Source: an uncultured Thiomicrospira sp. (lineage in GTDB: Bacteria > Pseudomonadota > Gammaproteobacteria > CAKMZV01). Taken from it: a stretch of 64,000 nt of DNA. Location: positions 64,001-128,000 of the forward strand of contig OZ239628.1 of the NCBI GenBank assembly GCA_965195345.1. The letters run 5' to 3'. Positions 37,009-54,270 of the stretch are shown in pieces; the stretch's first letter is position 1; every line of letters starts with the position of its first letter. The notes below the pieces were generated by a model. It was not told the DNA's origin. It saw only the letters and a list, made by a program, of their open reading frames with translations, and made no database searches. Both the position numbers and the translations under genes were made by a program.

Positions 37009-37015
37009 CCCAATC

Positions 37016-37054
37016 AAAGAGCGCTTGCGATGAACTGCAAGCGCTCTTTTTTTT
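37016..37054 (+). terminator. Rho-independent terminator/attenuator after tmoX
   Basis: AAAGAGCGCTTGC / GCAAGCGCTCTTT 13-bp stem with T8 tail. Confidence 0.85.
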
Positions 37055-37082
37055 AATTTTTAATATTTAAATTGCATAAAAA

Positions 37083-38132: not shown

Positions 38133-38133
38133 T

Positions 38134-40116: not shown

Positions 40117-40160
40117 GAAAAAATCGAATAAACACACTAAATTAGTAAAGGAGTAAATAG

Positions 40161-41974: not shown

Positions 41975-43282
41975 ATGAATTTAGAAAAAATAGCAAAATC
42001 GGAAGGAATTAAATATTTTCTAATCAGCTTTGTTGATTTATTCGGTGTGTTACGGGCAAAAATGGTGCCCGCTGCTGCCATAGCCGACATGCAGGAGAAT
42101 GGTGCGGGGTTTGCGGGATTTGCTGCTTGGATGGATATGACACCAGCGCATCCAGACACCCTCACAATGCCTGATGCTAATTCACTCATCCAGTTGCCTT
42201 GGAAGCCTGAAATTGGTTGGCTGAGTGGCGACTTATGGATGGATGGCAAACCTGTTGAATCTTGTCCACGCGTGGCTTTAAAGCGTCAAATAGAGAAATG
42301 TGATAAATTGGGAATGCGCCCTAAAACCGGCGTTGAATGCGAGTTTTTCCTCGTTGATCCTTCAGGCACAGTATTGGCTGACCCTGCTGACGTCCAAGAG
42401 AAACCTTGCTACGATCAACAAGCATTGATGCGCCGATATGACATTATCAGTGAAATTTGTGATGCGATGCTCTCATTGGGTTGGGAGCCTTATCAAAACG
42501 ACCATGAAGATGCCAACGGGCAATTTGAAATGAATTGGGCATTTGATGATGCTTTGGTTACTGCAGATCGGCATACGTTTTTCAAGTACATGGCAAAATC
42601 AATCGCTGAAAAACATGGTCTAAGGGCCACATTTATGCCAAAACCATTTGCTAATTTAACGGGCAATGGTTGTCATGCACACATTTCTATGTGGAATAAG
42701 AATGGCAGCAAAAATGAATTTCTGGATTCTAAAGACAAACGCAAGCTCGGTTTATCTACGACCGCCTATCAATTCCTCGGCGGAATTATGGATAATGCGC
42801 AAGCACTCTGTGCATTCTTCAATCCAACAGTCAACAGCTATAAACGCATTAACACGTCAACTAGTTCTTCAGGCGCATCGTGGTCGCCTTCGACTATTAC
42901 TTACAGTGGCAACAATAGAACACATTTAGTACGTGTGCCGGGCGATGGTCGTTTTGAGTTGCGTTTGATGGATGGCGCAGCCAATCCATTTTTAATGCAA
43001 GCAGGTGTTATTGCTGCAGGTCTTGATGGTATTTCCAAAAAGACTAACCCAGGTGACCCTCTGCATATCAACATGTATACTGACCCTTATGAGGCTAAAG
43101 AGTCCGAAAAACTGCCACTAAACTTGCTTGATGCTCTGCGCTTACTTGATAAAAATAAAATCATCCGTGCGCAACTTGGTGATGAATTGGTTGATGGATT
43201 TCTAAAGCTAAAGCACCAAGAATTAAATCGATTTAATGCCAGCGTTTCCGATTGGGAACGCATTAACACTTTGGATTGTTAA
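41975..43282 (+). CDS. gmaS: Gamma-glutamylmethylamide synthetase (GlnT-type glutamine synthetase homologue)
   Basis: KYFLISFVDLFG..RAKMVP, GAGFAGFAAW, KPCYDQQALMR, YQNDHEDANGQFEMNW, SGASWSP. Confidence 0.92.
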   Translation: MNLEKIAKSEGIKYFLISFVDLFGVLRAKMVPAAAIADMQENGAGFAGFAAWMDMTPAHPDTLTMPDANSLIQLPWKPEIGWLSGDLWMDGKPVESCPRVALKRQIEKCDKLGMRPKTGVECEFFLVDPSGTVLADPADVQEKPCYDQQALMRRYDIISEICDAMLSLGWEPYQNDHEDANGQFEMNWAFDDALVTADRHTFFKYMAKSIAEKHGLRATFMPKPFANLTGNGCHAHISMWNKNGSKNEFLDSKDKRKLGLSTTAYQFLGGIMDNAQALCAFFNPTVNSYKRINTSTSSSGASWSPSTITYSGNNRTHLVRVPGDGRFELRLMDGAANPFLMQAGVIAAGLDGISKKTNPGDPLHINMYTDPYEAKESEKLPLNLLDALRLLDKNKIIRAQLGDELVDGFLKLKHQELNRFNASVSDWERINTLDC

Positions 43283-43283
43283 C

Positions 43284-44531
43284 ATGCCTATTGGTCTTCT
43301 AAAATACGGACTTTCAGGTAAGTATTACCCAGTTAAGAAACATTTTACCCCGAGCAGCACCCCGCTTAAAAAACATTACGATGTTGTCATTATAGGTGGT
43401 GGTGGGCACGGTGCTGCAATTGCCTATTATTTATCAAAATATCATGGGATAAAGAATGTTGCGATTCTGGAAAAAAATTACCTTGGCGGTGGCAATACAG
43501 CAAGAAATACCGCCGTATTGCGCGCGAACTATCTAACGGAAGAAGGCATTACTTTTTATCGCGAATCAATGAAACTTTATCGAAGCTTGAGCGATGAGTT
43601 TGATTACAACATTCTATGGGAAAACCGTGGGCAACTTACTTTGGCGCACTCGGATGCCGCAATTCGCAGTTTCCGTTGGCGTGCTGAAATGAACAAAGAG
43701 TTTGGCGTTGGATCGGAAATGATTGACTTAAAGGAAATTAAAAAACTCGTACCTCTATTAAATACACGTGATGATGTCCGTTTTCCTGTCTTAGCAGGAC
43801 TATGGCACTATGATGGCGGTACAGCGCGCCATGACGCTGTAGCATGGGGATTTGCAAAAGGCGCTTGTGAACGTGGCGTTGAGTTGCACCAATGCACCGA
43901 AGTACTTGGCATGGAAGTCAAAAACAATAAAGTCACTACGGTAAAAACTAATCGCGGTGACATATCTTGCTCTCAAGTAGTGCAAGCGGTTGCTGGTATG
44001 AGTTCCCCTGTTGCTAAAATGGTTGGAATCTCCTTGCCCATCCACACCTACCCCTTGCAAGCGATGGTTACCCAACCTTACAAACCAATTATTTCTCCAT
44101 TAGTGAGCTCGCCGCATCTGCATGTATATATTCAACAGACTTCTCGAGGAGAGATGGTTATCGGTGGTGGCTCTGATCCATACCCTCTTTATAGCACACG
44201 CTCTTCACTTGAACTAAAAGAGACACTCGCTTCTGCCGCATGTGAATTATTCCCATTCTTTAAGGAATTAAGAGTTCTGCGTCAATGGGCAGGAATTACT
44301 GATATGACTCCTGATTACAGCCCAATAATGGGCAAAAGCCCTATCGATAACTATTACCTTGATGCAGGTTGGGGAACGTGGGGTTTTAAAGCAACGCCCA
44401 TCTCAGGAAAAACCATTGCGGAATTAGTCGCAACAAATAAAGTCCCAGACTTGATCGCGCCCTTTGCATTATCAAGATTTGATAATTATGCGCTGGTCAA
44501 CGAAGCGGGTGCAACAGCTGCCAGTCACTAA
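43284..44531 (+). CDS. mgdA: N-methylglutamate dehydrogenase / sarcosine oxidase beta subunit (SoxB-like)
   Basis: GGGGHG, GGGNTARNT..LRANY, GGTARHDAVAWG, GWGTWGFKATP, C-terminal E.GATAASH. Start at ATG 43284 is inferred. Confidence 0.88.
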   Translation: MPIGLLKYGLSGKYYPVKKHFTPSSTPLKKHYDVVIIGGGGHGAAIAYYLSKYHGIKNVAILEKNYLGGGNTARNTAVLRANYLTEEGITFYRESMKLYRSLSDEFDYNILWENRGQLTLAHSDAAIRSFRWRAEMNKEFGVGSEMIDLKEIKKLVPLLNTRDDVRFPVLAGLWHYDGGTARHDAVAWGFAKGACERGVELHQCTEVLGMEVKNNKVTTVKTNRGDISCSQVVQAVAGMSSPVAKMVGISLPIHTYPLQAMVTQPYKPIISPLVSSPHLHVYIQQTSRGEMVIGGGSDPYPLYSTRSSLELKETLASAACELFPFFKELRVLRQWAGITDMTPDYSPIMGKSPIDNYYLDAGWGTWGFKATPISGKTIAELVATNKVPDLIAPFALSRFDNYALVNEAGATAASH

Positions 44532-44546: not shown

Positions 44547-45884
44547 ATGCAAACACACAATCTGCCTTCATCCATTGACTACCTAATTATTGGAGCAGGA
44601 ATGCATGGCTTGTCAACTGCTTATCATTTAGCAAAATTGCAGCCAAACAAGTCAATCGCCATTGTTGATAAAAATGAGCTCGGAAAAGGAGCCACAAGCA
44701 TCGCTTGTGGTGTCGTACGTAATAACTATTTTCAGCCCGCTATGCGTAAACTAATGGCGCACTCCGTTGGTTTGTGGGAAAAGCATGCTAAAGAACTGTA
44801 CTACCATTCTGTTGGCTATATGCAAATTAGCATGGAAAGCATGCATGAAGATATTGCCTCAATTTATCAACAGCAGAAAGAAATTGGCTATGAGTCTGTT
44901 TTTATTGAAGGCGAGAAAGCGTCGATGGACTACATGAAAAATATGTTCAGCGATTGGCAAGCTCCATCAATCACCTCAGTACTGCACGAAAAAAGAGGCG
45001 GTTTCTCCCACAATACTTTAGCTATTAACGGTTTGGCAAAAATGGTACGCGATGCTGGTGTTGACATTCATACGAATGTAGAAGTCACATCAATGAAACG
45101 TGAAAGTTCGAGCAACGCAATTAAATCTGTAGAAACCTCTCAAGGAAATATTGAAGTTGGAGAGGTCATTGTAGCGCCCGGTCCTTGGGTTCGATCTTTT
45201 TGGAAAATGCTTGATTTGCCAGAGACTATTCAGATAAAAGGGAGAGATGGTCAAATGTATGACTCCCAAATGTGGCACTATTGGATGTTGCAAGAAGGTG
45301 TACTCAATATGCCTCCTTCATCGCTGTATACAAATGACAATCGTGTCCCTCCTGTGCTACACGTTGATTCCGATGCACCACTGTATTCTGATTCGACTGG
45401 AAAACGCCTCACTGCCGAAGGAGAGTCTTGGGGCATATACTACAAGCCTGACGAACACTTTGGCGGTATACAAGGGGGCTATGCTCCGTATCGCTTGGAG
45501 GAAGATAATGATAAGGTGGCAATTGAACCTTACGGAAAGCATTCGAAAAAATATCTTGTTACCGACCACTTTGTTGATGTATGGTGTTCTGCTTTAGCAG
45601 CCTGCATGCAACGTTTTGAAGGAAAGTCAGGTTTGTATAAACGTGAACCTTCTGGAGGCTTGGGTTGTTTGACTCCTGATAACTTTCCTATATTTGATCG
45701 CTACAGCGACAATGTCTATATCATTGCGGACGCTAACCATGGCTACAAAATGCTTGGAGTAGGTCAATTGGTTGCACAAGAGATTTCTGGAGAGCCCGCT
45801 GAATTACTTAAACCATTCCGTTTTGATCGTTATGAAAAGGGTGAACTTCATCCATTAAGTAACTCTCCATTTCCATGGAGTTAA
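44547..45884 (+). CDS. FAD-dependent DAO/SoxB-like oxidoreductase of unknown substrate
   Basis: GAGMHGLSTAYHLA dinucleotide fold, GATSIACGVVRNNY, TPDNFPIFD, HGYKM; AAGGAG RBS. Confidence 0.8.
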   Translation: MQTHNLPSSIDYLIIGAGMHGLSTAYHLAKLQPNKSIAIVDKNELGKGATSIACGVVRNNYFQPAMRKLMAHSVGLWEKHAKELYYHSVGYMQISMESMHEDIASIYQQQKEIGYESVFIEGEKASMDYMKNMFSDWQAPSITSVLHEKRGGFSHNTLAINGLAKMVRDAGVDIHTNVEVTSMKRESSSNAIKSVETSQGNIEVGEVIVAPGPWVRSFWKMLDLPETIQIKGRDGQMYDSQMWHYWMLQEGVLNMPPSSLYTNDNRVPPVLHVDSDAPLYSDSTGKRLTAEGESWGIYYKPDEHFGGIQGGYAPYRLEEDNDKVAIEPYGKHSKKYLVTDHFVDVWCSALAACMQRFEGKSGLYKREPSGGLGCLTPDNFPIFDRYSDNVYIIADANHGYKMLGVGQLVAQEISGEPAELLKPFRFDRYEKGELHPLSNSPFPWS

Positions 45885-45953
45885 GCAAAACGAAGGTATA
45901 TGCTATAAACTGTATTTTATTGTTTTTTATTTTTAATAATCGAAGGAGAATGT

Positions 45954-47420
45954 ATGACAGACCTAGACAAACACGTTAATCAGCCTGGTCGTGCTGATTT
46001 AGTAAAACAAGTTCGTGAAAAAATAAATGAGCTGGGCATAACTTATGTGTATTTCCAATTCATTTCAGTTACTGGACGCATCGTTGGTAAAGGCATTCCT
46101 GCCGATCACTGGGAACGCGTCGCTGAAAAAGGATTCCAACTTGTATATGGCTCAACCGCCAACTTATATGTAGATAGACATGGCGAATATATCGGCTATG
46201 GTCCTGAGTCTTCAGAGTTAGTAGGTATTCCCGACCCTGAAACATTTTGTCAACTACCTTGGGACAAACGTATTGCCCGTGTTTTTTGTACTTGTTTTCG
46301 CAATCGCGAAGAAAAAGTCAATCCAGGTGGACATCTAACCTCTGACTGTCGCGGTAACCTACGTCAGCACATGCGTGAAATGGAAAACGAGCATGGCTTG
46401 CACATGCGTTGCGGCACAGAGCCAGAAATGATGTGGTTAAAACGCGATGAAAATGGAAAACTTGCTGGTATAACCAAACCTAATTGCTATCATATAGATC
46501 AATTTGAAGAATTGCGTAAACCTTTTATGCGCGTTGTTGAATATTCTCAAGCAATGGGTCTCGATATGATTCAAGGAGATCATGAAGACGCACCTGGGCA
46601 ACTCGAATTAAACTGGATGTTTGATGATGTCCTACGCAATGCCGATCGCTTATCCACCTACCGTCAAATATGTGCACAAGTAGGTCGTGAATTTGGTCTA
46701 GTTGCTTGTTTTATGACAAAACCATTCGTTGGTGTTTCTGCTTCAGGATGCCACCATAATATGTCTCTTTGGAAAGGCGGCAAAGACATTGTTAATCGCC
46801 TTCACAATGATGTTCTACCAGGACTTGAAGGCGTTTTCACTTATTCCGAAGGTGGTGAAAATACTTTTATGCCTGACCCAAGTATCGATAAATACAAACC
46901 CGGACCTGTAGGGTTAAAATCGATTGGAGGCGTTCTTAAAAACATTCGCGCTCTAACTGCCATCGGATCGTCCACTGTCAACTCTTATCGTCGTCTATGG
47001 GATACCGGTTTCTGGGCTCCAGTTTTTGCTGATTGGGGTTATCAAAATAGAACTTGTGGATTACGTGTATCGGCGCCCGGTCGCTTCGAATATCGTTCAG
47101 TCGATTCCATGGTTAATCCATATTTAATGGGTAGTGCTTTAATAAAAAGCTTTGCTGATGGCATCACAAATGATCTGGATCCAGGCGAGCCTGAAGAACG
47201 CAACATCTATGAAGCACAGCAAGCGGGTAAAAACGTTGAACGCTTGCCTATGTCATTAGGCGAGGCTTTGGACGCACTGGAAGCAAACGAAGTGATTAAA
47301 TCTGCTATGCCCGATGAGATGTATACCGTCTTTTCTCACTACAAGCGCAATGAGTGGGAAATGTTTAACCATACGGTTACTGATTGGGATTTGGAAACTT
47401 ATTGGGATTACCTCCCATAA
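45954..47420 (+). CDS. Second glutamine synthetase-like (gamma-glutamyl-amine ligase) protein
   Basis: GTEPEM, DHEDAPGQLELN, KPF....SGCHHNMSLW, NSYRRL, WGYQNRT, RFEYRSVD. Lacks the FDGSS and GYEAP residues of true GlnA. Confidence 0.85.
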   Translation: MTDLDKHVNQPGRADLVKQVREKINELGITYVYFQFISVTGRIVGKGIPADHWERVAEKGFQLVYGSTANLYVDRHGEYIGYGPESSELVGIPDPETFCQLPWDKRIARVFCTCFRNREEKVNPGGHLTSDCRGNLRQHMREMENEHGLHMRCGTEPEMMWLKRDENGKLAGITKPNCYHIDQFEELRKPFMRVVEYSQAMGLDMIQGDHEDAPGQLELNWMFDDVLRNADRLSTYRQICAQVGREFGLVACFMTKPFVGVSASGCHHNMSLWKGGKDIVNRLHNDVLPGLEGVFTYSEGGENTFMPDPSIDKYKPGPVGLKSIGGVLKNIRALTAIGSSTVNSYRRLWDTGFWAPVFADWGYQNRTCGLRVSAPGRFEYRSVDSMVNPYLMGSALIKSFADGITNDLDPGEPEERNIYEAQQAGKNVERLPMSLGEALDALEANEVIKSAMPDEMYTVFSHYKRNEWEMFNHTVTDWDLETYWDYLP

Positions 47421-47436
47421 CAACAGGTGTTTTCTT

Positions 47437-47468
47437 CATTATTGAGCGTGCTTTCACGCTCAATAATG
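47437..47468 (+). other. Perfect 14-bp hairpin between the GS-like gene and the mgsA-like gene
   Basis: CATTATTGAGCGTG-CTTT-CACGCTCAATAATG; no long U-tract. Confidence 0.7.
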
Positions 47469-47503
47469 TTAACTAAAATTTATCTACAATCTAAGGAGAG
47501 AAT

Positions 47504-48439
47504 ATGTGCGGAATCGCAGGAATTATTCATAGAGGCGGTCCTTCCAAAAGTCTTGGAAAGGAGATGACTGCAATGTTGCAATCTCTGAAACATAGAGGAC
47601 CAGACTCTACTGGTTTTGCAATGTATGGGAGTGATCGAACCAACTATATTGTTCGTTTCAAAACCGCTGAACAAGAAGACATGGCAAAAGGATTTGAAAT
47701 AGGTGACAAAGTCAAACTACGAAAAGCAGAAGTTAATAGTCGTTTGAACACTTTGGGAGCTCAAATCATTGCTGAAGAAAGCCCTACTGAATATGCGCAT
47801 CGATATGAGGTCGCTTTTAGCGGAGATTTGAAAAAGATGGCAGACTACATTGAGGATATTGAAGGCGTTGAAATCATGTCAATAGGCAATACTCTTGAAC
47901 TTATAAAAGACTTGGGTGATTCGGCTGATGTGGCTGGAGCATATGAGATTGCATCGTTTGCTGGAACACATGCTATTGGACACACACGCATGGCTACTGA
48001 ATCAGACGTTGATATGCGTTCTGCCCACCCATATTGGGCATATCCATTCAGTGATGTTTCGGTGGTACATAACGGACAACTCACTAACTATTGGACTAAT
48101 CGCCGTGATCTTGAACGTAGTGGTCATCGTTTTTCATCAGACTGTGATTCCGAGTTAATTGCGGTCTATATTGCTGACCGGATGAATCAAGGAGATGACC
48201 TTGAGTCCGCGATGAAGCGCTCTATTGACTTTCTTGATGGCGTATTTACTTATATTATCGCAACACGTGATCAAATGGGTATGGCCAAAGATGTTATGGC
48301 AGCAAAACCAATGGTTCTGCACGAGAGCGAAAATCTGATTGTAATGGCTTCTGAAGAAATAGCCATTCGTCAGGTGTTCGATCACGATGTAGACACCTAT
48401 GATCCTTACCATGGAGAGGTAAAAGTATGGGCCAATTAA
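47504..48439 (+). CDS. mgsA: N-methylglutamate synthase subunit A-like (class II glutamine amidotransferase, GlxB)
   Basis: N-terminal MCGIAG nucleophile, HRGPDS, GHTRMATES, HNGQL, DSE. Confidence 0.8.
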   Translation: MCGIAGIIHRGGPSKSLGKEMTAMLQSLKHRGPDSTGFAMYGSDRTNYIVRFKTAEQEDMAKGFEIGDKVKLRKAEVNSRLNTLGAQIIAEESPTEYAHRYEVAFSGDLKKMADYIEDIEGVEIMSIGNTLELIKDLGDSADVAGAYEIASFAGTHAIGHTRMATESDVDMRSAHPYWAYPFSDVSVVHNGQLTNYWTNRRDLERSGHRFSSDCDSELIAVYIADRMNQGDDLESAMKRSIDFLDGVFTYIIATRDQMGMAKDVMAAKPMVLHESENLIVMASEEIAIRQVFDHDVDTYDPYHGEVKVWAN

Positions 48440-49269
48440 ATCAAGATAAATCCCAATTGATGGGTCTGCACGGCGAACAACTGTCAGGACGAACACAGCA
48501 ACAATTTTTTTCAGTGGATGAAAGTGCTAATCTAACGTACCCGTTTTCATTCGATGTTGATTTCAATAAAAAAGAAGTTATTGATGCTGAAGACCTTACG
48601 CCCACTGAGATTAACTTACAAATTCGAAAATTGATGGAAAATGGTATCGGTTCTATCACAGTGAAAAATCCCAAAGCACGCCATGGTTTAGGCGTTGGAA
48701 TCCTCAATCGTTTAAACCTTACTTTTGAAGGCAGCCTCGGGTATTTTGGTTGTGGCTTGGTTGATGGAGCTAACATTCATATTACAGGTCGTGTTGGTTG
48801 GTCATGCGCCGAAAACATGATGGCTGGCACGGTGGTCATTGAGAAGAATGGCGGTTCTACTTTCGGAGCAGCAATTCGTGGTGGCGACCTTGTTTGTAAA
48901 GGATCTGTTGGAGCTCGGACTGGGATCGACCAAAAGGGTGGAACTATCATTGTCGGTGGCAAAACAGGTGCATTTTCTGGATTCATGATGCAACGTGGTC
49001 GCATGATTATTTGTGGCGATGCAGGAATAAACCTTGGCGACTCCATGTACGATGGAACAATATATGTTGGTGGCGATATTGAGGGATTGGGGGTTGATGC
49101 TGTTGAGGCAGAAATAACCGACCTAGATATTGCTTGGCTTGAAGGGAAACTCTCCTTGTATGCCATTGAAGCACCTTGTGGTGTGAAAAACATGAAAAAA
49201 ATCGTTTCTGGAAAACAGCTGTGGAATTACGACAGTCTTGAACCCAGTGAGAAAAAACTCGTTCTGTAA
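48427..49269 (+). CDS. mgsB: N-methylglutamate synthase subunit B-like (GXGXG/FwdC beta-helix, GlxC)
   Basis: GXGXG repeats; AENMMAG, GGTIIVGG..GAFSGFMMQRG, LGDSMYDG. Confidence 0.82.
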   Translation: MGQLNQDKSQLMGLHGEQLSGRTQQQFFSVDESANLTYPFSFDVDFNKKEVIDAEDLTPTEINLQIRKLMENGIGSITVKNPKARHGLGVGILNRLNLTFEGSLGYFGCGLVDGANIHITGRVGWSCAENMMAGTVVIEKNGGSTFGAAIRGGDLVCKGSVGARTGIDQKGGTIIVGGKTGAFSGFMMQRGRMIICGDAGINLGDSMYDGTIYVGGDIEGLGVDAVEAEITDLDIAWLEGKLSLYAIEAPCGVKNMKKIVSGKQLWNYDSLEPSEKKLVL

Positions 49270-49307
49270 AGGAACTTGATACACCGTTAAATATTAGAGG
49301 TATATAT

Positions 49308-50645
49308 ATGAGTACAAATGACGATCGATATCGTTTAGGAAAAAGTTTCATGTTCCCCAAAGAGGTGATGAATGACATTCATATCAAATCCGAATTGGGC
49401 CGTTATAGAATGCGTGGATTCTCGCTTTTCAAAAAAATCCCTACTTGGGATGATCTAACATTCATGCCAGGAACGTTAACGCGTTTTGTAATCGAAGGTT
49501 ATCGTGAGAAATGCGAAACAAAAACCATTATTGGTCCTAATGCTAAAAAACCATTAGAACTCGACATTCCTATTTACGTTACTGGAATGAGCTTTGGCGC
49601 TTTAAGCTACGAGGCAAAAGTAGCACTTGCTCGTGGTGCAACCATGGCAGGAACAGCTACTTGTTCAGGCGAAGGCGGTATGATTCCTGATGAACGCCGT
49701 TATTCAAGTAAGTGGTTCTACCAATGCATCCAATCACGTTATGGCTTTAACCCGAATCACTTGCGCTTAGCTGATGCTGTTGAATTTTTCATCGGTCAAG
49801 GGTGTAAAGTCGGTTTAGGAGGGCATTTAATGGGACAGAAAGTAACCGATCAAGTTGCTGAAATGCGTTCACTTCCAGCAGGTATTGATCAACGATCTCC
49901 TGCGCGCCATCCTGATTGGTTAGGCCCAGATGATCTGGCGCTGAAAATCGAAGAAATTCGTGAAGCAACCGATGGTCAAATTCCCATTCAGTTAAAACTT
50001 GGGGCAGCACGTGTATACGATGATGTGCGTATGGCTGCTAAAACTGGTGCTGATAGCATTTATATTGATGGCATGGAAGGTGGCACAGGTGCAGGGCCTC
50101 ACCTTGCAACTGAAGAAACAGGAGTACCGGGTATTGCTGCCATCCGTCAAGCCAGACGCGCGCTGGAAGATGTGGGGAAATCAGGTGAAATCACTCTTAT
50201 CTACGCAGGTGGTATTCGCAATGGCGGTGATGTTGCCAAAGCATTAGCACTGGGCGCTGATGGTGTCGCTATTGGACATTCCGCTCTTATGGCATTAAAC
50301 TGCAATAAAGACATCCCTGAAGCGGATTATGAAAAAGAAATGGGCGTTAAAGCAGGAGAATGCTATCACTGTCACACGGGTCGTTGCCCTGTGGGCGTTG
50401 CTACGCAAGACCCTGAGTTACGTAAACGCCTTGATCCCGATGCCGCCGCTGAACGCGTGTACAACTTTCTACATTGCCTTGCCATTGAATGTCAAATGAT
50501 GGCTCGTGCTTGTGGTAAAACAAATGTTCACTCACTGGAGCCCGAAGATTTATCTGCTTTAACAATGGAAGCTTCTGCCATGGCAGGTGTTCCACTGGCA
50601 GGTACGCAACACACGGTCGGCCATCCAGACATGAAACGCTTTTAA
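49308..50645 (+). CDS. mgsC: N-methylglutamate synthase subunit C-like (FMN-binding glutamate synthase domain, GlxD)
   Basis: GMSFGALS, GEGGM, GQGCK.G.GG.L.GQK, DQRSPARHPDW.GPDDL, CYHCHTGRCPVGVATQD (3Fe-4S). Confidence 0.87.
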   Translation: MSTNDDRYRLGKSFMFPKEVMNDIHIKSELGRYRMRGFSLFKKIPTWDDLTFMPGTLTRFVIEGYREKCETKTIIGPNAKKPLELDIPIYVTGMSFGALSYEAKVALARGATMAGTATCSGEGGMIPDERRYSSKWFYQCIQSRYGFNPNHLRLADAVEFFIGQGCKVGLGGHLMGQKVTDQVAEMRSLPAGIDQRSPARHPDWLGPDDLALKIEEIREATDGQIPIQLKLGAARVYDDVRMAAKTGADSIYIDGMEGGTGAGPHLATEETGVPGIAAIRQARRALEDVGKSGEITLIYAGGIRNGGDVAKALALGADGVAIGHSALMALNCNKDIPEADYEKEMGVKAGECYHCHTGRCPVGVATQDPELRKRLDPDAAAERVYNFLHCLAIECQMMARACGKTNVHSLEPEDLSALTMEASAMAGVPLAGTQHTVGHPDMKRF

Positions 50646-50659
50646 ACAGGAGAAACACA

Positions 50660-51052
50660 ATGACTGACAAAAAACAAGATGCTGATTATTTCTTAAAATC
50701 TGATGGACTTGATTCCAATCGCGAAAAAGAGATTGGTCAGCACATCGGTTATCGTTATGATGTTAACCTCGTGCCTGATATGAAGTATATCACGCCGTTT
50801 TTACAATCTTATATTGAAAAAATGGGCTGGTCTGACTTAAATTGGTTAGAAGATGTTCATATGGGCTATGAGGAAAATCGTGCAGCCGTATTTGATCGAA
50901 ATATTAATGGTTGGGTTACCGTTCCAGATAGTATAACGCTGCCCGATAATCAGCAAGAGCGTGATATGATCGCCCGTGAATTGCTTATTAAATTTCAAAT
51001 GTCTGGGAAACACCCTCTTGTTGATTTAATCAAAGCATACCGCAAGTTCTAA
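50660..51052 (+). CDS. Hypothetical 130-aa soluble protein within the mgs/mgd operon
   Basis: AGGAG RBS; stop overlaps the mgdB start (TAATG); no recognisable motif. Confidence 0.8.
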   Translation: MTDKKQDADYFLKSDGLDSNREKEIGQHIGYRYDVNLVPDMKYITPFLQSYIEKMGWSDLNWLEDVHMGYEENRAAVFDRNINGWVTVPDSITLPDNQQERDMIARELLIKFQMSGKHPLVDLIKAYRKF

Positions 51053-51327
51053 TGAAACAAATGCCCTGTCCTCTAAATGGTCTGCGCAACATTTCCGAAT
51101 TCAATTATGGTGGTGAAGTAGAAATGATGCCAGACCATACAAAGGTTGATAATAAACAGTGGTCTCAATATGTCTTCTATCATGAAAACCCTTTAGGAAT
51201 AGTGCGTGAATGGTGGTGCCATGCGCCTACCAGCTATTGGTTTATCGCAGAACGTAATACATCAACCGATGAAATAGTAAAAACCTATGACGCTGGTAAG
51301 ATATATGATAAACGCGTTGATTTTTAG
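51052..51327 (+). CDS. mgdB: N-methylglutamate dehydrogenase / sarcosine oxidase delta subunit (SoxD-like)
   Basis: CPLNGLRNISEF.YGG, N..G.VREWWCH.PT.YWF.AERNT..DE. Confidence 0.9.
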   Translation: MKQMPCPLNGLRNISEFNYGGEVEMMPDHTKVDNKQWSQYVFYHENPLGIVREWWCHAPTSYWFIAERNTSTDEIVKTYDAGKIYDKRVDF

Positions 51328-51359
51328 ATCAAAATTCCGATAAAAATAAGAGATTTATT

Positions 51360-54269
51360 TTGAAACAGCAACGATTGAAAGCGCCTTTCGGGACGCTAGT
51401 TAACACCAACAATGCCATTGAATTTACCTTTGAAGGGCGTAGTTATACTGGTTATGAGGGAGATACTATTGCTAGCGCATTGTGGGCAAATGGGCAAAAA
51501 ATGATTTCCCGATCATTTAAGTACCACCGTCCCCGTGGCATTTTAAGTATGACTGGGCAAGATGCAAACACCTTCGTGCAACTCAAGGGGGAAAGCAACG
51601 TTCCAGCGGATACTTACAAACTTTCTAGACATCTTGAAGTGAAGGGACAACACTACATTGGTTCCCTTGAAAAAGATCGTATGGCATTCGCTGGAAAATT
51701 ATCTCGCTTTTTACCTGTCGGCTTTTACTACAAGGCTTTTTACCGTTTCAATTTATGGGAAAAATGGTGGCATAGAATCTTTAGAAAGCTCACTGGACTT
51801 GGTACCATAAACCCTGAAAATATAGGTTCTGCATACGACAAGCAGTATTTGTTCTACGATATTGTTGTTATTGGCGCAGGACTGTCTGGAATGCAAAGTG
51901 CCATTGAAGCTACTAATGGTGGTGCTAAAGTGTTACTTGTTGATGAGAACGTGATGCTTGGTGGTTCACTCAACTATTCGCGCATGGATGCCGAAGGAAC
52001 TGCTGCCCAAAAGTTAAAAACTAATCTTATTGCTCAGGTCACAAACAACAAAAATATCACTGTAATGCTTGATACGGTTTGTAATGCTTTCTATGCCGAT
52101 AACTGGTTAGCGATCATTAAAGACTTGCGCCTCTATAAAACACGTGCAAAACAAATTATTGTAGCTGCGGGAACATTTGAGCAACCACTGGTATTTCACA
52201 ATAATGACCTTCCGGGAATAATGCTTGGTACCGCTGCCCAACGGTTAATGTGGAACTATGGAATAAAGCCCGGAACCAGAGCAGTGATTACAACCACCAA
52301 TAATCGTGGCTATGAAGTTGTTCTTGATTTGCTTGACGCTGGTGTTGAAGTCGCAGCCGTCGTTGATTTACGAACCAACGTTTCAACCGATTCCATTGTG
52401 CAAGCGGTTATTGAAAAAAAGGTGGAAGTTTTACAGAACCATACCGTTTTTAGTGCAAATTCCTCAGAGAACGTTCTTGTTGGCGTTGAAATTCGAGCCA
52501 TTACGGGTAGTGGACAATGTTCTACTGAGCATCAATATATAGACTGCGACTTGCTGTGCATGAGTGGAGGGCACATGCCCGCCTACCAGCTACCATGTCA
52601 TGTTGGGGCGCATCTTAACTACAATGAAAACACCAATCAATTTATTATAGAGAATCTGTCAAAAGCGATCCATTTGACAGGTTCAATGAACGGCGCTAAC
52701 TGCATTGAAGGCAAAATTGAACAAGCAAAGATAGCCGCTTTTCACGCATTATCGGATCTTGGCATGGCTAGTGGAAAGCTCGCAAAAATAAAGCATAGTA
52801 CCCCCATCAGCAATGATTTTGTCCTTCCCATATTCAATCACGATGACGGTAAAGAATTTATAGATTATGACGAAGATTTACAAATAGCCGATATTATTAA
52901 TGCTGTACGCGAGGGCTATGAAGACATTCAATTAGTCAAAAGATTCTCAACGCTCGGAATGGGACCGTCTCAAGGTCGCTATGCTGCTTTTATGAGTGCT
53001 TTACTGGTGGCTAGTTTAGAGGAAAACCGCAGCATAGGTAAAGTAGGTGTAACCACTGCACGTCCTCCATTTGCCGCTGAAAAGCTGGGCCATATGGCAG
53101 GTCGTAGCTTCTTCCCAGAGCGACACAGCAATATGCACTACCGTCATGTTGAAATCAATGCACAACCTCTTATTGCAGGAGCATGGATTCGTCCTGCCTA
53201 TTATGGACCTAAAGGGACATTACAAGAATGCGTCAATAAAGAATGTCTCAACGTGCACAACAATGTTGGTGTCGTTGACGTTTCTACATTAGGCGGGTTA
53301 GAAATTCGTGGACCAGATGCGGCGGAATTTATTAATCGTGTGTACACTTGGAACTTTATAAAACAACCTGTTGGAAAAGCACGCTATGCATTACTTACCA
53401 ATGAAGCAGGAGTTGTAATTGATGACGGTGTTGCTTGCCGATTTAGTGATCAGCACTTTTATGTAACAGCTACTACTGGAGGCGTTGATAATGTGTACCT
53501 GCAATTTTTGCGATGGAATGTTCGCTGGCGTTTAGATGTAGATATTGCTAACGTAACTTCTGCATGGTGCGGGGTAAATATTGCTGGACCAAATTCACGT
53601 AAAGTCCTCGAGAAAATTTGTACAGACGTTGACCTCTCCTCTCAAGCATTTCCTTACGTTGGTGTACGTGAAGGCACCATTGCAGACATGCCTGCTCGCA
53701 TCATTCGTGTTGGTTTCGTTGGGGAACTGGGTTATGAAATTCATGTCCCACAACACTACGGTGAGGCGTTATGGGACGCCGTTATCGAAGCTGGTAAGGA
53801 ATTCGACATAATGCCATTTGGGATTGAAGCTCAGCGCGTATTACGCTTGGAAAAAGGTCATGTGATAATCAGTCAAGATACTGATTCAATGACATACCCT
53901 GAAGAAATAAACATGTCATGGGCAGTAAGTGACACAAAGCCATTCTTTGTAGGTAAACGCTCTATTGACATTGTTAGGGACAATAAGCTCATCCGTAAGT
54001 TGATAGGCTTTGAAATCCCAGATGAAAAAGGCATAAAACCTCAAGAAAACCACTTACTATTTGATCAAAACAACAAATTAATTGGGCGTGTTACCTCTTG
54101 TGCATACTCTGCTTTCCTCAACAAGACTATTGGTCTGGCCTATATTGACCCAACATTTAGTGAAGTAGGTCAAGCCTTTAAAATTCGTTGCGACGGCAAA
54201 CAAAATGCGCAAGCAAAAGTAGTTTCTCTACCCTTTTACGACCCGAACAATCAACGACAAAAAATCTAA
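51360..54269 (+). CDS. mgdC: N-methylglutamate dehydrogenase / sarcosine oxidase alpha subunit (SoxA-like)
   Basis: GDTIASAL.ANG...SRSFKYHRPRG, GAGLSG, GMGPSQGR, TTARPP, DVSTLG, RVGFVGELGYE, LRLEKGH. Confidence 0.92.
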   Translation: MKQQRLKAPFGTLVNTNNAIEFTFEGRSYTGYEGDTIASALWANGQKMISRSFKYHRPRGILSMTGQDANTFVQLKGESNVPADTYKLSRHLEVKGQHYIGSLEKDRMAFAGKLSRFLPVGFYYKAFYRFNLWEKWWHRIFRKLTGLGTINPENIGSAYDKQYLFYDIVVIGAGLSGMQSAIEATNGGAKVLLVDENVMLGGSLNYSRMDAEGTAAQKLKTNLIAQVTNNKNITVMLDTVCNAFYADNWLAIIKDLRLYKTRAKQIIVAAGTFEQPLVFHNNDLPGIMLGTAAQRLMWNYGIKPGTRAVITTTNNRGYEVVLDLLDAGVEVAAVVDLRTNVSTDSIVQAVIEKKVEVLQNHTVFSANSSENVLVGVEIRAITGSGQCSTEHQYIDCDLLCMSGGHMPAYQLPCHVGAHLNYNENTNQFIIENLSKAIHLTGSMNGANCIEGKIEQAKIAAFHALSDLGMASGKLAKIKHSTPISNDFVLPIFNHDDGKEFIDYDEDLQIADIINAVREGYEDIQLVKRFSTLGMGPSQGRYAAFMSALLVASLEENRSIGKVGVTTARPPFAAEKLGHMAGRSFFPERHSNMHYRHVEINAQPLIAGAWIRPAYYGPKGTLQECVNKECLNVHNNVGVVDVSTLGGLEIRGPDAAEFINRVYTWNFIKQPVGKARYALLTNEAGVVIDDGVACRFSDQHFYVTATTGGVDNVYLQFLRWNVRWRLDVDIANVTSAWCGVNIAGPNSRKVLEKICTDVDLSSQAFPYVGVREGTIADMPARIIRVGFVGELGYEIHVPQHYGEALWDAVIEAGKEFDIMPFGIEAQRVLRLEKGHVIISQDTDSMTYPEEINMSWAVSDTKPFFVGKRSIDIVRDNKLIRKLIGFEIPDEKGIKPQENHLLFDQNNKLIGRVTSCAYSAFLNKTIGLAYIDPTFSEVGQAFKIRCDGKQNAQAKVVSLPFYDPNNQRQKI

Positions 54270-54270
54270 C

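What the first reader, a model, noticed from the sequence alone, without database searches (positions are those of the whole stretch)
44547..51052. Six-gene block splitting mgdA from mgdBCD: candidate glutamylation-based dimethylamine pathway
Seen: the order is gmaS-mgdA-[second SoxB-like flavoprotein, second GS-like ligase, mgsA/B/C-like, 130-aa unknown]-mgdB-mgdC-mgdD, all co-oriented and tightly spaced. The operon thus has two amine:glutamate ligase homologues and two beta-type flavoproteins but one alpha/delta/gamma set, and no dmm genes are in the window. Known: the N-methylglutamate route (GmaS, MgsABC, MgdABCD) handles MMA with one ligase and one beta subunit; Tdm releases DMA. Inference: the second ligase makes gamma-glutamyl-dimethylamide. 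That product, or N,N-dimethylglutamate formed by the Mgs-like complex, is then demethylated by the second flavoprotein, possibly docking on MgdBCD to pass C1 to THF. This would be a monooxygenase-independent DMA route that I do not know to have been described.
Basis: partly seen in the sequence, partly recalled or inferred. Interest (0 to 1): 0.88.

Follow-up and report, generated by a model that had tools for sequence, protein, structure and literature searches.

The report
Candidate monooxygenase-free dimethylamine pathway cassette
A tightly conserved six-gene block in marine bacteria turns up almost exactly where the known dimethylamine-degrading enzyme is missing, so it may be the unknown route by which much of the ocean's dimethylamine is consumed.

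Summary
The order is gmaS-mgdA-[DAO flavoprotein fp2, GS-like ligase gs2, mgsA'B'C', 130-aa ORF]-mgdBCD, co-oriented, with gaps of -47 to 83 nt.

The block is a self-contained cassette. With enough flank, 58 of 58 loci keep mgsA'B'C' after gs2 and 57 of 58 keep the 130-aa gene. gs2 is 76-84% identical across the 80 loci kept.

- Of 54 tdm-positive genomes from two class-wide samples, 38 carry gs2. Only 2 of these hit the Dmm marker PF11927.
- 13 of the 16 tdm-positive genomes without gs2 hit PF11927.
- The window's 99.7%-complete genome has tmm, tdm, gmaS and a second mgsABC, but no Dmm marker.
- fp2 travels with gs2: 44 of 52 against 1 of 16.

gs2 carries the GmaS-type catalytic motif at 28% identity. 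fp2 folds like N-methyl-amino-acid oxidases.

I read the cassette as a Dmm-independent, glutamate-mediated DMA route (confidence 0.55). No substrate was tested. Docking of fp2 on MgdBCD is not supported. PF11927 co-occurs with gs2 in 7 of 64 genomes.

The parts
44547..45884 (+). fp2: stand-alone DAO-fold flavoprotein, the proposed N-methyl demethylating oxidase or dehydrogenase of the cassette
   Evidence: Pfam DAO. soxB model 99 bits against a cut-off of 529. AF2 pLDDT 89.9. Best Foldseek match is heterotetrameric SoxB 3ad9_B, E 1e-29, TM 0.72/0.80, 20% identity, followed by proline DH beta, MSOX, DMGDH and DMGO. Co-occurs with gs2 in 44 of 52 genomes against 1 of 16.
45954..47420 (+). gs2: GmaS-like gamma-glutamyl-amine ligase with an insertion of about 40 aa, the proposed DMA ligase
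   Evidence: TIGR03105 305 bits against a cut-off of 469.6. 28% identical to the window's gmaS, but shares the motif QxDHEDAxGQxExNW and the flap Trp. Homologues are 76-84% identical in the 80 best of at least 596 genome loci.
47504..48439 (+). mgsA': class-II (Ntn) amidotransferase subunit
   Evidence: GATase_6 and GATase_7. N-terminus MCGIAG. Follows gs2 in 58 of 58 loci with enough flank.
48427..49269 (+). mgsB': GXGXG subunit
   Evidence: PF01493. Conserved in the cassette.
49308..50645 (+). mgsC': FMN (glutamate-synthase-type) subunit with four invariant Cys
   Evidence: PF01645, 304 bits. 86-95% identical across classes; C332, C352, C355 and C360 are invariant in 24 of 24 sequences. C332, C355 and C360 align with the C-x5-C-x4-C motif of the genome's own GltB.
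50660..51052 (+). unk130: cassette-specific 130-aa protein of unknown fold
   Evidence: No Pfam or NCBIfam hit. 54 invariant columns in 36 sequences. AF2 pLDDT 79 with no PDB fold match at E<=1e-3. 304 hits at E<=0.001, many of those listed covering only part of the profile, among 1.84 billion representatives.
41975..43282 (+). gmaS (gamma-glutamylmethylamide synthetase)
   Evidence: TIGR03105 653 bits, above the cut-off of 469.6. E 1.9e-178 to PDB 7cql.
43236..44531 (+). mgdA: beta subunit of a heterotetrameric Sox/Mgd-type dehydrogenase. The true start is probably near 43284.
   Evidence: soxB family 468 bits. Alignment with other beta subunits.
51052..54951 (+). mgdB, mgdC and mgdD: delta, alpha and gamma subunits
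   Evidence: SoxD; SoxA-like (825 bits on TIGR01372); SoxG-like.
33545..35842 (+). tdm: TMAO demethylase, the DMA producer
   Evidence: NF053776 1161.7 bits, above the cut-off of 1100.
18361..19701 (+). tmm: TMA monooxygenase
   Evidence: NF058570 817.5 bits, above the cut-off of 675.
36061..41828 (+). tmoXWV-like ABC transporter and fhs (formate-THF ligase)
   Evidence: OpuAC, ABC_tran, BPD_transp_1 and FTHFS.
31708..33066 (-). Amt-family transporter
   Evidence: PF00909. Amt relatives lie beside the cassette in 29 of 80 loci.

Best explanation
The six genes fp2-gs2-mgsA'B'C'-unk130 form a self-contained, widely distributed cassette. It is a paralogue of the N-methylglutamate (NMG) pathway. 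It most likely takes the place of dimethylamine monooxygenase (Dmm) in bacteria that make DMA from TMAO with Tdm.

Proposed mechanism; every chemical step is inferred:
1. GS2, a GmaS-like ATP-dependent ligase, joins DMA to the gamma-carboxyl of glutamate.
2. The Ntn-amidotransferase MgsA' releases the amine inside the MgsA'B'C' complex. The FMN subunit MgsC' then adds it reductively to enzyme-bound 2-oxoglutarate, giving N,N-dimethylglutamate.
3. fp2, a dimethylglycine-oxidase-like flavoprotein, removes one methyl group to give N-methylglutamate.
4. MgdABCD removes the second methyl group as methylene-THF.

A variant is that fp2 demethylates gamma-glutamyl-dimethylamide to gamma-glutamylmethylamide, which Mgs and Mgd then process.

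No free MMA and no O2-dependent monooxygenase are needed. In genomes that lack the gmaS-linked mgsABC, MgsA'B'C' probably also handles the GmaS product. unk130 is an essential-looking accessory protein of unknown role.
For: SHOWN
1. Module status. mgsA'B'C' follows gs2 in 58 of 58 loci, and unk130 follows in 57 of 58. fp2 lies directly upstream in 35 of 71 loci. gs2 is 76-84% and mgsC' 86-95% identical across classes, over loci of 34-69% GC.
2. It is not the canonical pathway. gs2+ genomes also carry gmaS in 42 of 52 cases. The gmaS-adjacent mgsC type is a different paralogue, about 50% identical. The streamlined genomes G000, G435 (1.41 Mb) and G775 (1.3 Mb) keep both sets.
3. Link to TMAO and C1 genes. 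tdm lies within 10 kb in 20 of 80 loci, with amt, tmoXWV, fhs and folD nearby. gs2, mgsA'B'C', tdm and tmoX/tmoW lie one after another in L062, L067, L069 and L075 (with unk130 called in L067 and L075; L081 ends before tdm), all co-oriented except tmoX in L069. tdm-fp2-gs2-...-amt are co-oriented in G775.
4. Complementarity with Dmm among tdm+ genomes. Gamma sample: gs2+ 0 of 15 with PF11927, gs2- 6 of 7. Alpha sample: gs2+ 2 of 23, gs2- 7 of 9. In the gamma sample the 15 gs2+ genomes fall in 8 families and the 6 Dmm genomes in 4 other families.
5. PF11927 is a valid proxy. In G363 it sits in a cluster of reductase (DmmA-like_N), PF11927, GcvT, purU, tmm and tdm.
6. fp2 travels with gs2 even when the two genes are unlinked: 44 of 52 against 1 of 16.
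7. gs2 shares the GmaS catalytic motif (equivalents of D177, E186 and W189) and the flap Trp in place of the GS flap Glu (residue roles from passages of PMC7948447).
8. A GS-fold ligase can turn over with DMA: RhGmaS has Km 16 mM and kcat 2.6 s-1 (PMC7948447, Table 1, passage read).
9. The predicted fp2 fold matches sarcosine and dimethylglycine oxidases and dehydrogenases.
10. A Sox/Mgd-type beta-subunit gene (and in some loci other subunits) lies within 10 kb of the cassette in at least 7 of 80 loci and in G741 (L092).
11. The own genome has tmm, tdm, gmaS, mgsABC and mgd but no Dmm marker.

INFERRED: the identity of the amine, both intermediates, and the order of the steps.
Against: - No biochemical or expression data were available. 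No RNA run holds the locus.
- PF11927 co-occurs with gs2 in 7 of 64 genomes: G017, G202, G285, G299, G351, G741, and a weak partial hit in G435. In G202 a Dmm-like gene sits beside gmaS and mgsC while the full cassette lies on another contig.
- 22 of 60 gs2+ genomes in the two samples lack tdm.
- fp2 was not found in 8 of 52 gs2+ genomes.
- In 12 of 24 gamma gs2+ genomes MgsA'B'C' is the only Mgs, so it cannot be DMA-exclusive.
- Physiological glutamylation of a secondary amine and reductive amination with one are, to my knowledge, unprecedented for these families.
- Genomes in the samples are related, so the Fisher p-values overstate the case. Lineage or ecology could produce part of the complementarity.
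- PF11927 is a proxy for Dmm, not a test of all four dmm genes.
- The alpha-sample handles came without completeness figures.
Confidence: 0.55

Rival explanations
1. The cassette is a second, non-redundant module for a primary amine. Candidates are high-affinity scavenging of MMA, or of ethylamine, ethanolamine or a similar amine. It would run in parallel to GmaS-MgsABC, with fp2 as an alternative oxidase for N-alkylglutamate. DMA would not be metabolised, and the 'bottleneck' would be real.
For: - The known GS-like amine ligases named by the searches here act on ammonia or primary amines: GmaS (PMC7948447 passages) and the polyamine, ethanolamine and 1-naphthylamine ligases (titles and abstracts only).
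- gs2 carries the GmaS catalytic motif.
- MgsA'B'C' is the sole Mgs in 12 of 24 gamma gs2+ genomes that mostly still have gmaS, so it probably accepts the MMA-derived amide.
- 22 of 60 gs2+ genomes lack tdm.
Against: - It does not explain why gs2 and PF11927 are nearly exclusive among tdm+ genomes: 2 of 38 against 13 of 16.
- It does not explain why 1.3-1.9-Mb streamlined genomes keep both gmaS and gs2, and in three cases both mgs sets.
- It does not explain why the cassette is co-oriented with tdm and tmoXW in several lineages.
Confidence: 0.22
2. The cassette acts on an N-oxygenated product of DMA, such as N-methylhydroxylamine or N,N-dimethylhydroxylamine made by Tmm, rather than on DMA itself. 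GS2 would trap it as a gamma-glutamyl hydroxamate. The Cys-cluster-bearing MgsC' would take part in its reduction.
For: - RhGmaS accepts hydroxylamine with Km 0.21 mM (PMC7948447, Table 1 passage).
- MgsC' keeps four invariant Cys that align with the Fe-S motif of GltB.
- tmm is in the window.
- That FMO-type enzymes N-oxygenate secondary amines is recalled, not checked here.
Against: - tmm lies within 10 kb of the cassette in only 4 of 80 loci.
- The genome-wide co-occurrence of tmm with gs2 was not tested.
- The same Cys set occurs in a gmaS-linked-type MgsC, in G435.
- Nothing in the calls points specifically to hydroxylamines.
Confidence: 0.06
3. The cassette is an archaeal-type split GS-GOGAT system for ammonium assimilation that merely sits among methylamine genes.
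For: - GS-like ligase plus GATase, GXGXG and FMN subunits.
- An Amt-family gene is nearby in 29 of 80 loci.
- The best PDB sequence match of gs2 is an archaeal GS.
- MgsC' retains GltB-like Cys ligands.
Against: - gs2 has Trp where GS has the catalytic flap Glu, and it shares the GmaS-specific motif.
- mgsC' is 50% identical to the gmaS-linked MgsC but gives only 133 bits on the GltB model.
- The obligate partner fp2 is an amine-oxidase-fold protein.
- The gene context is C1/THF and TMAO.
- The genome already has a full-length GltB.
Confidence: 0.05

Closest known systems
N-methylglutamate pathway (GmaS, MgsABC, MgdABCD) for monomethylamine
   Same: It has the same three enzyme families and the same logic: an ATP-dependent gamma-glutamyl ligase, then a GATase/GXGXG/FMN synthase, then a flavoprotein demethylation to methylene-THF. 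gs2 keeps the GmaS catalytic motif. MgsA' keeps the N-terminal Cys.
   Different: - gs2 is 28% identical to GmaS, scores below the GmaS model cut-off (305 against 469.6), has an insertion of about 40 aa and has a GS-like Asp50' loop.
- mgsA'B'C' are 32/35/50% identical to the gmaS-linked set and travel with gs2, not with gmaS.
- There are two extra conserved genes, fp2 and unk130.
- Its distribution complements Dmm.
Dimethylamine monooxygenase DmmDABC, a haem-dependent oxidative N-demethylase type
   Same: It is proposed to occupy the same pathway position, taking DMA onward after Tdm. The two are nearly mutually exclusive among tdm+ genomes.
   Different: There is no homology. Dmm is an O2/NAD(P)H-dependent enzyme that yields free MMA (PMC5520151, passages). 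The cassette would use ATP and glutamate conjugates and would yield no free MMA.
Dimethylglycine oxidase and dehydrogenase, sarcosine oxidases (MSOX, heterotetrameric SoxB), L-proline dehydrogenase beta
   Same: The predicted fp2 fold matches them at TM 0.68-0.73 (by query length) and Foldseek E 1e-22 to 1e-29. The proposed chemistry, oxidative N-demethylation of an N-methyl amino acid, is theirs.
   Different: - Only 17-20% identity.
- fp2 has no THF-binding GcvT domain, unlike DMGO and DMGDH.
- It lacks the N-terminus of beta subunits.
- The His of the beta-subunit ARHD motif is not conserved.
- It has two insertions and a family-specific C-terminus, NSPFPWS.
Other gamma-glutamylation routes for amines (polyamines GlnA2/GlnA3 and PuuA, ethanolamine GlnA4, 1-naphthylamine and aniline)
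   Same: A GS-like ligase activates an amine as a gamma-glutamyl amide before oxidation. For PuuA this is followed by a DAO-family oxidase (recalled). The papers were seen only as titles and abstracts.
   Different: Those act on primary amines. They have no Mgs-type synthase and no unk130, and they are not linked to tdm or THF genes.

Membership tests
GmaS (NCBIfam TIGR03105, gamma-glutamylmethylamide synthetase) - for gs2 | Score at or above the curated cut-off of 469.6 bits | tested here: not met
   305 bits for gs2. The window's gmaS scores 653.4.
GmaS (NCBIfam TIGR03105, gamma-glutamylmethylamide synthetase) - for gs2 | Catalytic Asp177 and Glu186, Trp189, and Trp in place of the GS flap Glu (RhGmaS numbering, PMC7948447) | tested here: met
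   gs2 QGDHEDAPGQLELNW against gmaS QNDHEDANGQFEMNW. The flap Trp aligns. gs2 GFWAP against GS GYEAP.
GmaS (NCBIfam TIGR03105, gamma-glutamylmethylamide synthetase) - for gs2 | Shortened Asp50' loop without the Asp (Ala48' in RhGmaS) | tested here: not met
   gs2 keeps a GS-length loop with Asp aligned to the GS 'FDG'. The window's gmaS has a 9-residue gap there.
GmaS (NCBIfam TIGR03105, gamma-glutamylmethylamide synthetase) - for gs2 | Preference for MMA as the amine substrate | not testable with these tools
   Needs an enzyme assay.
N-methylglutamate synthase MgsABC - for mgsA'B'C' | Three subunits: class-II GATase with N-terminal Cys, GXGXG, and an FMN glutamate-synthase domain | tested here: met
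   Pfam hits. MCGIAG start.
N-methylglutamate synthase MgsABC - for mgsA'B'C' | Orthology and synteny with gmaS, as in the co-transcribed gmaS-mgsABC of R. pomeroyi (PMC13390433, passage) | tested here: not met
   The mgsC type next to gmaS is the L001 type, at least 73% identical to L001 (for example G144, G109, G064, G406, G775). The cassette type is about 50% identical and follows gs2.
Heterotetrameric sarcosine oxidase / NMG dehydrogenase beta subunit (TIGR01373) - for fp2 | Score at or above the cut-off of 529 bits, full-length match | tested here: not met
   99 bits, covering residues 9-210 only.
Heterotetrameric sarcosine oxidase / NMG dehydrogenase beta subunit (TIGR01373) - for fp2 | Conserved ARHD histidine (recalled as the FMN attachment site) and the N-terminal extension of beta subunits | tested here: not met
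   All 4 of 4 beta subunits aligned have ARHD. fp2 has His at that position only in the window and L003, and N or P in the 3 others. The N-terminal extension is absent.
Heterotetrameric sarcosine oxidase / NMG dehydrogenase beta subunit (TIGR01373) - for fp2 | Two-domain DAO/GR2 fold | tested here: met
   Foldseek 3ad9_B, E 1e-29, TM 0.72/0.80.
Dimethylamine monooxygenase DmmDABC | Presence of the HODM-alpha-like subunit (PF11927) and a DmmA-like reductase (PF22290) | tested here: not met
   0 hits for each in the 99.71%-complete genome. PF11927 rang in other genomes with the same search.
Glutamine synthetase / GOGAT ammonium assimilation | Catalytic flap Glu of GS; GlnA and GltB model scores above their cut-offs | tested here: not met
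   Trp at the flap position. GlnA model 248 against 429. GltB model 133 against 1047 for mgsC'.

The most novel reading that the evidence does not exclude
The cassette is the predominant route of dimethylamine turnover in the ocean. It would be an ATP-driven, glutamate-conjugate pathway that does not use O2 as a substrate, running through gamma-glutamyl-dimethylamide and N,N-dimethylglutamate. It includes a new accessory protein (unk130) and an Fe-S-bearing Mgs-type synthase. In the samples searched it occurs in about 70% (38 of 54) of Tdm-encoding alpha- and gammaproteobacterial species, and the 80 loci kept also include records titled SAR324, Acidimicrobiia, SUP05 and sponge-symbiont lineages. 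The reported 'metabolic bottleneck' at DMA would then largely be an annotation gap.
Probability: 0.4. Interest if true: 0.93.

Novelty: new variant of a known kind. Interest (0 to 1): 0.86.

Why it matters
DMA is a climate-relevant marine amine. Lidbury et al. 2017 (PMC5520151, abstract and passages read) found dmmDABC missing from SAR11 and from abundant marine Gamma- and Deltaproteobacteria that carry tmm, tdm and gmaS. They concluded that there is a genetic and metabolic bottleneck at DMA.

If this cassette consumes DMA, several things follow:
- The bottleneck would be filled for many of those lineages.
- Estimates of marine DMA sinks, and of nitrogen and C1 flux from TMAO, would change.
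- gs2 and fp2 would become functional gene markers.
- The list of GS-like and Mgs-type enzyme chemistries would gain secondary-amine substrates.
- unk130 and a 190-aa neighbour family found in other genomes would get a first functional context.

The question is directly testable. At least one complete genome record not labelled as a MAG (L060, Arenicellales) carries the cassette, and a dmmA mutant of R. pomeroyi exists (PMC13390433, passage).

Tried and rejected
- Expression: the look-up of sequencing runs listed no RNA holder of the locus.
- Operon signals: the promoter and terminator scan was not above shuffles.
- unk130: there was no Pfam or NCBIfam hit even at E<=1. The ESM Atlas gave no usable hit. 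Foldseek against PDB gave no match at E<=1e-3. The profile search found only the family itself. Complex prediction of MgsC' with unk130 returned 'no answer'.
- The 190-aa neighbour family (c10/c15): no Pfam hit and no Atlas hit.
- 'fp2 is an alternative beta subunit that docks on MgdBCD' was rejected as a general feature.
- 'The Cys cluster of MgsC' sets the cassette apart from canonical MgsC' was rejected. The own-genome canonical MgsC lacks all four Cys, but the canonical-type MgsC of G435 keeps them and that of L080 keeps two.
- 'The block merely holds the genome's only mgsABC' was rejected.
- Literature: searches for dimethylglutamate, dimethylglutamine and glutamyl-dimethylamide, dimethylamine with dmmDABC and gmaS, dimethylamine with Pelagibacter and N-methylglutamate, SAR11 with gmaS and mgsABC, Thioglobus with tdm and dimethylamine, and dimethylamine with gamma-glutamyl and GS-like found no description of such a route in the held library. 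Subscription journals are not covered, and supplements were closed. Supplementary tables of PMC5520151 and of the UBA868 preprint may list these genes.
- Genome G240 could not be scored.
- G285 is unpublished. It contributes one of the 24 gamma gs2+ genomes and one of the 7 gs2+/PF11927+ cases.

Full report
OBSERVATION

The window lies at 64001-128000 of a single 1.92-Mb contig with 39.8% GC and 99.71% completeness.

Pfam and NCBIfam give this map, all on the + strand unless marked:
- tmm, 18361-19701: NF058570 817.5 bits, cut-off 675.
- An Amt-family gene, 31708-33066, minus strand.
- tdm, 33545-35842: NF053776 1161.7 bits, cut-off 1100.
- A tmoXWV-like transporter, 36061-40116.
- fhs, 40161-41828.
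- gmaS, 41975-43282: TIGR03105 653 bits, cut-off 469.6.
- mgdA, 43236-44531.
- The block: fp2 (DAO fold, 445 aa), gs2 (GS-like, 488 aa), mgsA' (class-II GATase), mgsB' (GXGXG), mgsC' (FMN glutamate-synthase domain) and unk130 (no family).
- mgdB, mgdC and mgdD, 51052-54951.

Gaps between successive genes from gmaS to mgdD are -47 to 83 nt. A consensus promoter and terminator scan was no better than shuffles, so the operon reading rests on spacing and orientation.

THE BLOCK IS A CONSERVED CASSETTE

The best 80 are 76-84% identical to gs2. By their record titles they come from Gamma- and Alphaproteobacteria, SAR324/'Deltaproteobacteria', Acidimicrobiia bins, SUP05/Thioglobus, Arenicellales and sponge-symbiont lineages.

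Counts from the tblastn maps of these loci:
- mgsA'B'C' follow gs2 in 58 of 58 loci with at least 3.8 kb downstream.
- unk130 follows in 57 of 58.
- fp2 lies directly upstream and co-oriented in 35 of 71 loci with at least 1.5 kb upstream.

ORF clustering added further frequent neighbours: a divergent GntR/FCD regulator in 47 loci, Amt-family genes, tdm, tmoXWV, fhs, folD, pdxJ, and an unannotated 190-aa family in 21 loci. tdm lies within 10 kb in 20 of 80 loci and amt in 29 of 80.

In four SUP05-type loci (L062, L067, L069, L075) the order is an XRE-cupin regulator, gs2, mgsA'B'C', tdm and tmoX/tmoW, with unk130 called between mgsC' and tdm in L067 and L075; all are co-oriented except tmoX in L069, and a fifth locus, L081, ends after mgsB'. 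In G775 (1.3 Mb) the order is tdm, fp2, gs2, mgsA'B'C', unk130, amt.

The arrangement seen in the window, with the cassette between mgdA and mgdB, recurs only in its own family: L003, and the coordinates of G001, G003 and G004.

A FastTree of 74 gs2 proteins shows a tight clade on a long branch from GmaS. The alpha rows mostly group together. A few SAR324, Acidimicrobiia and Parasphingorhabdus bins nest among the gamma rows, which could reflect transfer or binning error.

IT IS A PARALOGUE OF THE CANONICAL PATHWAY, NOT THE PATHWAY ITSELF

The window's genome has a second mgsABC set, 32/35/50% identical, at 1.844-1.847 Mb. It lies beside pgi and a bona fide soxBDAG, whose soxB scores 672.8 bits against a cut-off of 529. 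That second type is the one found next to gmaS in other genomes, for example G144, G109, G064, G406, G730 and G775. This matches the co-transcribed gmaS-mgsABC of R. pomeroyi (PMC13390433, passage). I therefore call it canonical by synteny.

gs2-bearing genomes also carry gmaS in 42 of 52 cases: 19 of 24 gamma, 18 of 23 alpha and 5 of 5 extra genomes.

The canonical mgsC type is present in only 12 of 24 gamma gs2+ genomes. The same-genus genomes G003 and G004 lack it although they have gmaS and mgd. Where it is missing, MgsA'B'C' must also serve the MMA branch if that branch works.

Three streamlined genomes (G000; G435, 1.41 Mb; G775, 1.3 Mb) keep both sets. This argues against simple redundancy.

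THE PROTEINS

gs2
- It is 28% identical to the window's GmaS. The best PDB sequence matches are an archaeal GS (207 bits) and a glutamate-methylamine ligase (189 bits).
- It shares the motif that holds the RhGmaS residues Tyr174, Gln175, Asp177, Glu186 and Trp189. gs2 reads QGDHEDAPGQLELNW and gmaS reads QNDHEDANGQFEMNW.
- It has Trp where GS has the catalytic flap Glu. The residue roles come from passages of PMC7948447.
- Unlike GmaS, it keeps a GS-length Asp50' loop with the Asp, and it has an insertion of about 40 residues after the CHHNMSLW segment.

MgsA' and MgsC'
- MgsA' starts with Met-Cys, the Ntn nucleophile.
- MgsC' is 86-95% identical across classes and has four invariant Cys. Three of them align with the C-x5-C-x4-C motif of the genome's own GltB.
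- The own-genome canonical MgsC has D/Y/Y/D at these positions. The Cys are nevertheless kept in the canonical-type MgsC of G435, so this is not a cassette-specific mark.

fp2
- The model has pLDDT 89.9. The best matches are heterotetrameric SoxB (E 1e-29, TM 0.72/0.80, 20% identity), then L-proline dehydrogenase beta, monomeric sarcosine oxidase, DMGDH and DMGO.
- In alignment with four beta subunits it lacks their N-terminal roughly 40 residues, carries two insertions, and ends in a family-specific NSPFPWS. The His of the beta-subunit ARHD motif is present only in the window and L003, and is N or P in the three other fp2 sequences.
- It has no THF-binding domain.

unk130
- It has 54 invariant columns in 36 sequences. 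Its model has pLDDT 79 with no PDB fold match.
- It has no relatives outside its own narrow family among 1.84 billion representatives.

PHYLOGENETIC PROFILE

Gamma-class sample: 401 genomes drawn evenly from the window's class, each at least 80% complete.
- tdm at E<=1e-100 in 22 of 400 scored genomes; G240 could not be scored.
- gs2 at E<=1e-150 in 24 of 401.
- 15 genomes have both, 9 have gs2 only and 7 have tdm only.
- PF11927 was searched in these 31 genomes. Hits: 0 of 15 among tdm+gs2+, 6 of 7 among tdm+gs2- (not G292), and 5 of 9 among gs2+tdm-.

PF11927 is the haem N-demethylase alpha-like subunit. In G363 it lies in a cluster of a reductase with a DmmA-like_N domain, PF11927, GcvT, purU, tmm and tdm, so it is a reasonable proxy for Dmm.

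Alpha-class sample: 401 genomes.
- tdm in 32 and gs2 in 36, with 23 sharing both.
- PF11927 among tdm+gs2+: 2 of 23. G741 is a strong hit; G435 is a weak partial hit at 5.6e-14.
- PF11927 among tdm+gs2-: 7 of 9. Four are strong, G652 and G766 are intermediate, and G727 is weak.
- PF11927 among gs2+tdm-: 0 of 13.

Pooled over the 54 tdm+ genomes:
- 38 (70%) have gs2. Of these, 2 have PF11927.
- 16 lack gs2. Of these, 13 have PF11927.
- 3 have neither: G292, G679 and G790.
- Fisher p = 4.6e-8. This overstates the case because related genomes are not independent.
- In the gamma sample the 15 gs2+ genomes span 8 families and the 6 Dmm genomes span 4 other families.
- Over all gs2+ genomes tested, PF11927 occurs in 7 of 64.

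fp2 at E<=1e-60:
- Present in 23 of 24 gamma gs2+ genomes, 17 of 23 alpha gs2+ genomes and 4 of 5 extra gs2+ genomes.
- Present in 1 of 16 gs2- genomes.
- It is often at a distant site, as in G064, G255, G066 and G405.

All 68 genomes examined have at least one Sox/Mgd beta subunit.

The window's own genome has no PF11927 and no PF22290.

INTERPRETATION

The cassette is genetically tied to TMAO and C1/THF genes. It coexists with the MMA pathway, and it fills the gap left by Dmm. DMA is the substrate that explains all three facts.

The enzyme families suggest this sequence:
1. GS2 makes gamma-glutamyl-dimethylamide. A GS-fold ligase can turn over with DMA: RhGmaS has Km 16 mM (PMC7948447, Table 1).
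2. MgsA' hydrolyses the amide within the complex.
3. MgsC' makes N,N-dimethylglutamate by the FMN ping-pong chemistry known for NMG synthase. That chemistry is recalled, not checked here.
4. fp2 demethylates N,N-dimethylglutamate to N-methylglutamate.
5. Mgd finishes the demethylation.

The alternative, in which fp2 demethylates the amide to gamma-glutamylmethylamide, fits the genomics equally well. It is chemically less likely for a DAO-fold amine oxidase; that judgement is inference.

Both versions bypass free MMA. This is consistent with the 10 of 52 gs2+ genomes in which gmaS was not found.

All chemical steps are inferred. Only gene content, conservation, motifs, predicted fold and distribution are shown.

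CAVEATS
- The 7 co-occurrences with PF11927, four of them in a 64-67%-identity gs2 subclade that lacks tdm.
- 22 of 60 gs2+ genomes without tdm.
- 8 of 52 gs2+ genomes without a detected fp2.
- The dual role implied for MgsA'B'C'.
- Lineage effects.
- Use of a single-family proxy for Dmm.
- The alpha-sample handles came without completeness figures.
- One genome, G285, is unpublished.

LITERATURE
- Lidbury et al. 2017 (PMC5520151; abstract and passages) report dmmDABC absent from SAR11 and from abundant marine Gamma- and Deltaproteobacteria, and call this a bottleneck.
- Sun et al. 2011 (PMC3160333; passages) list one glxBCD and one glnT in HTCC1062, and a 'monomeric sarcosine oxidase' next to the gene now known as tdm.
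- A 2026 preprint on a cultured UBA868 (Arenicellales) strain (passages) states that genes for DMA oxidation are present but does not say which.
- Six full-text searches found no description of a glutamyl route for DMA in the held library. Supplements were closed, and subscription journals are not covered.

VERDICT

This is a new variant of the NMG / gamma-glutamylation kind of pathway, of high interest and directly testable.

Noticed in passing
G000:C1:1837883-1847333 (L001 3297-13393, minus strand): A second locus in the same genome holds a bona fide soxBDAG (soxB 672.8 bits, above the cut-off), pgi on the opposite strand, and the gmaS-type (canonical) mgsABC. This mgsABC is unlinked from gmaS, which sits in the window instead.
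   Followed up: partly
window 49308-50645 (MgsC' residues C332, C352, C355, C360): Four invariant Cys in MgsC' align with the 3Fe-4S-type C-x5-C-x4-C motif of the genome's own GltB. The own-genome canonical MgsC has lost all of them (D/Y/Y/D). The canonical-type MgsC of G435 keeps them and that of L080 keeps two. Mgs-type synthases thus come with and without a probable Fe-S cluster.
   Followed up: partly
e.g. L015:15192-15794, L060:6978-7544, L090:4555-5094, L098:14571-15113: A conserved protein family of about 190 aa (motif LGWQCR[IV]RQ) has no Pfam or Atlas hit. It lies just after unk130 or just before the regulator in 21 of 80 loci and in G435, G202, G299 and G246. It is absent from the window's genome (tblastn).
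   Followed up: partly
e.g. L004:3152-3898 (minus strand); L009:4832-5446: A divergent GntR/FCD regulator precedes the cassette in 47 of 80 loci, and an XRE-cupin regulator precedes it in SUP05-type loci. Neither was found in the window's genome by tblastn at E<=1e-5, where the cassette is embedded in the gmaS-mgd array.
   Followed up: partly
window 57319-58479 (+): A Rieske/ring-hydroxylating-type oxygenase alpha subunit is only distantly like glycine betaine monooxygenase GbcA (128 bits against a cut-off of 670). It lies 2.4 kb downstream of mgdD, beyond two opposite-strand genes. It may be an N-demethylase of unknown substrate.
   Followed up: no
G486, G728, G607, G730, G452, G097, G290: Several genomes hold a second gs2-like gene 54-61% identical to gs2. 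In addition, a 63-67% subclade exists (G017, G202, G285, G322, G336, G351, G166). The GS2 family has diversified, perhaps toward other amines.
   Followed up: no
G405:C63:93719-96301; G777:C6; L052, L080, L023: Besides the window-type MgdA (at least 52% identical) and SoxB (43-48%), a third class of beta subunit (40-42%) often lies beside fp2 or the cassette. Which heterotetrameric enzyme handles which N-methyl amino acid is unresolved.
   Followed up: no
window 43236-43284: The longest mgdA ORF overlaps the end of gmaS by 47 nt. Alignment with other beta subunits suggests the real start is the second Met (MPIGLLKYG), about 16 codons downstream, right after the gmaS stop.
   Followed up: partly
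G679, G652, G766, G495: Some alphaproteobacterial 'tdm' hits cover only residues 155-765 at 44-47% identity. They may be a Tdm paralogue with a different N-terminus. All four genomes are gs2-negative.
   Followed up: no
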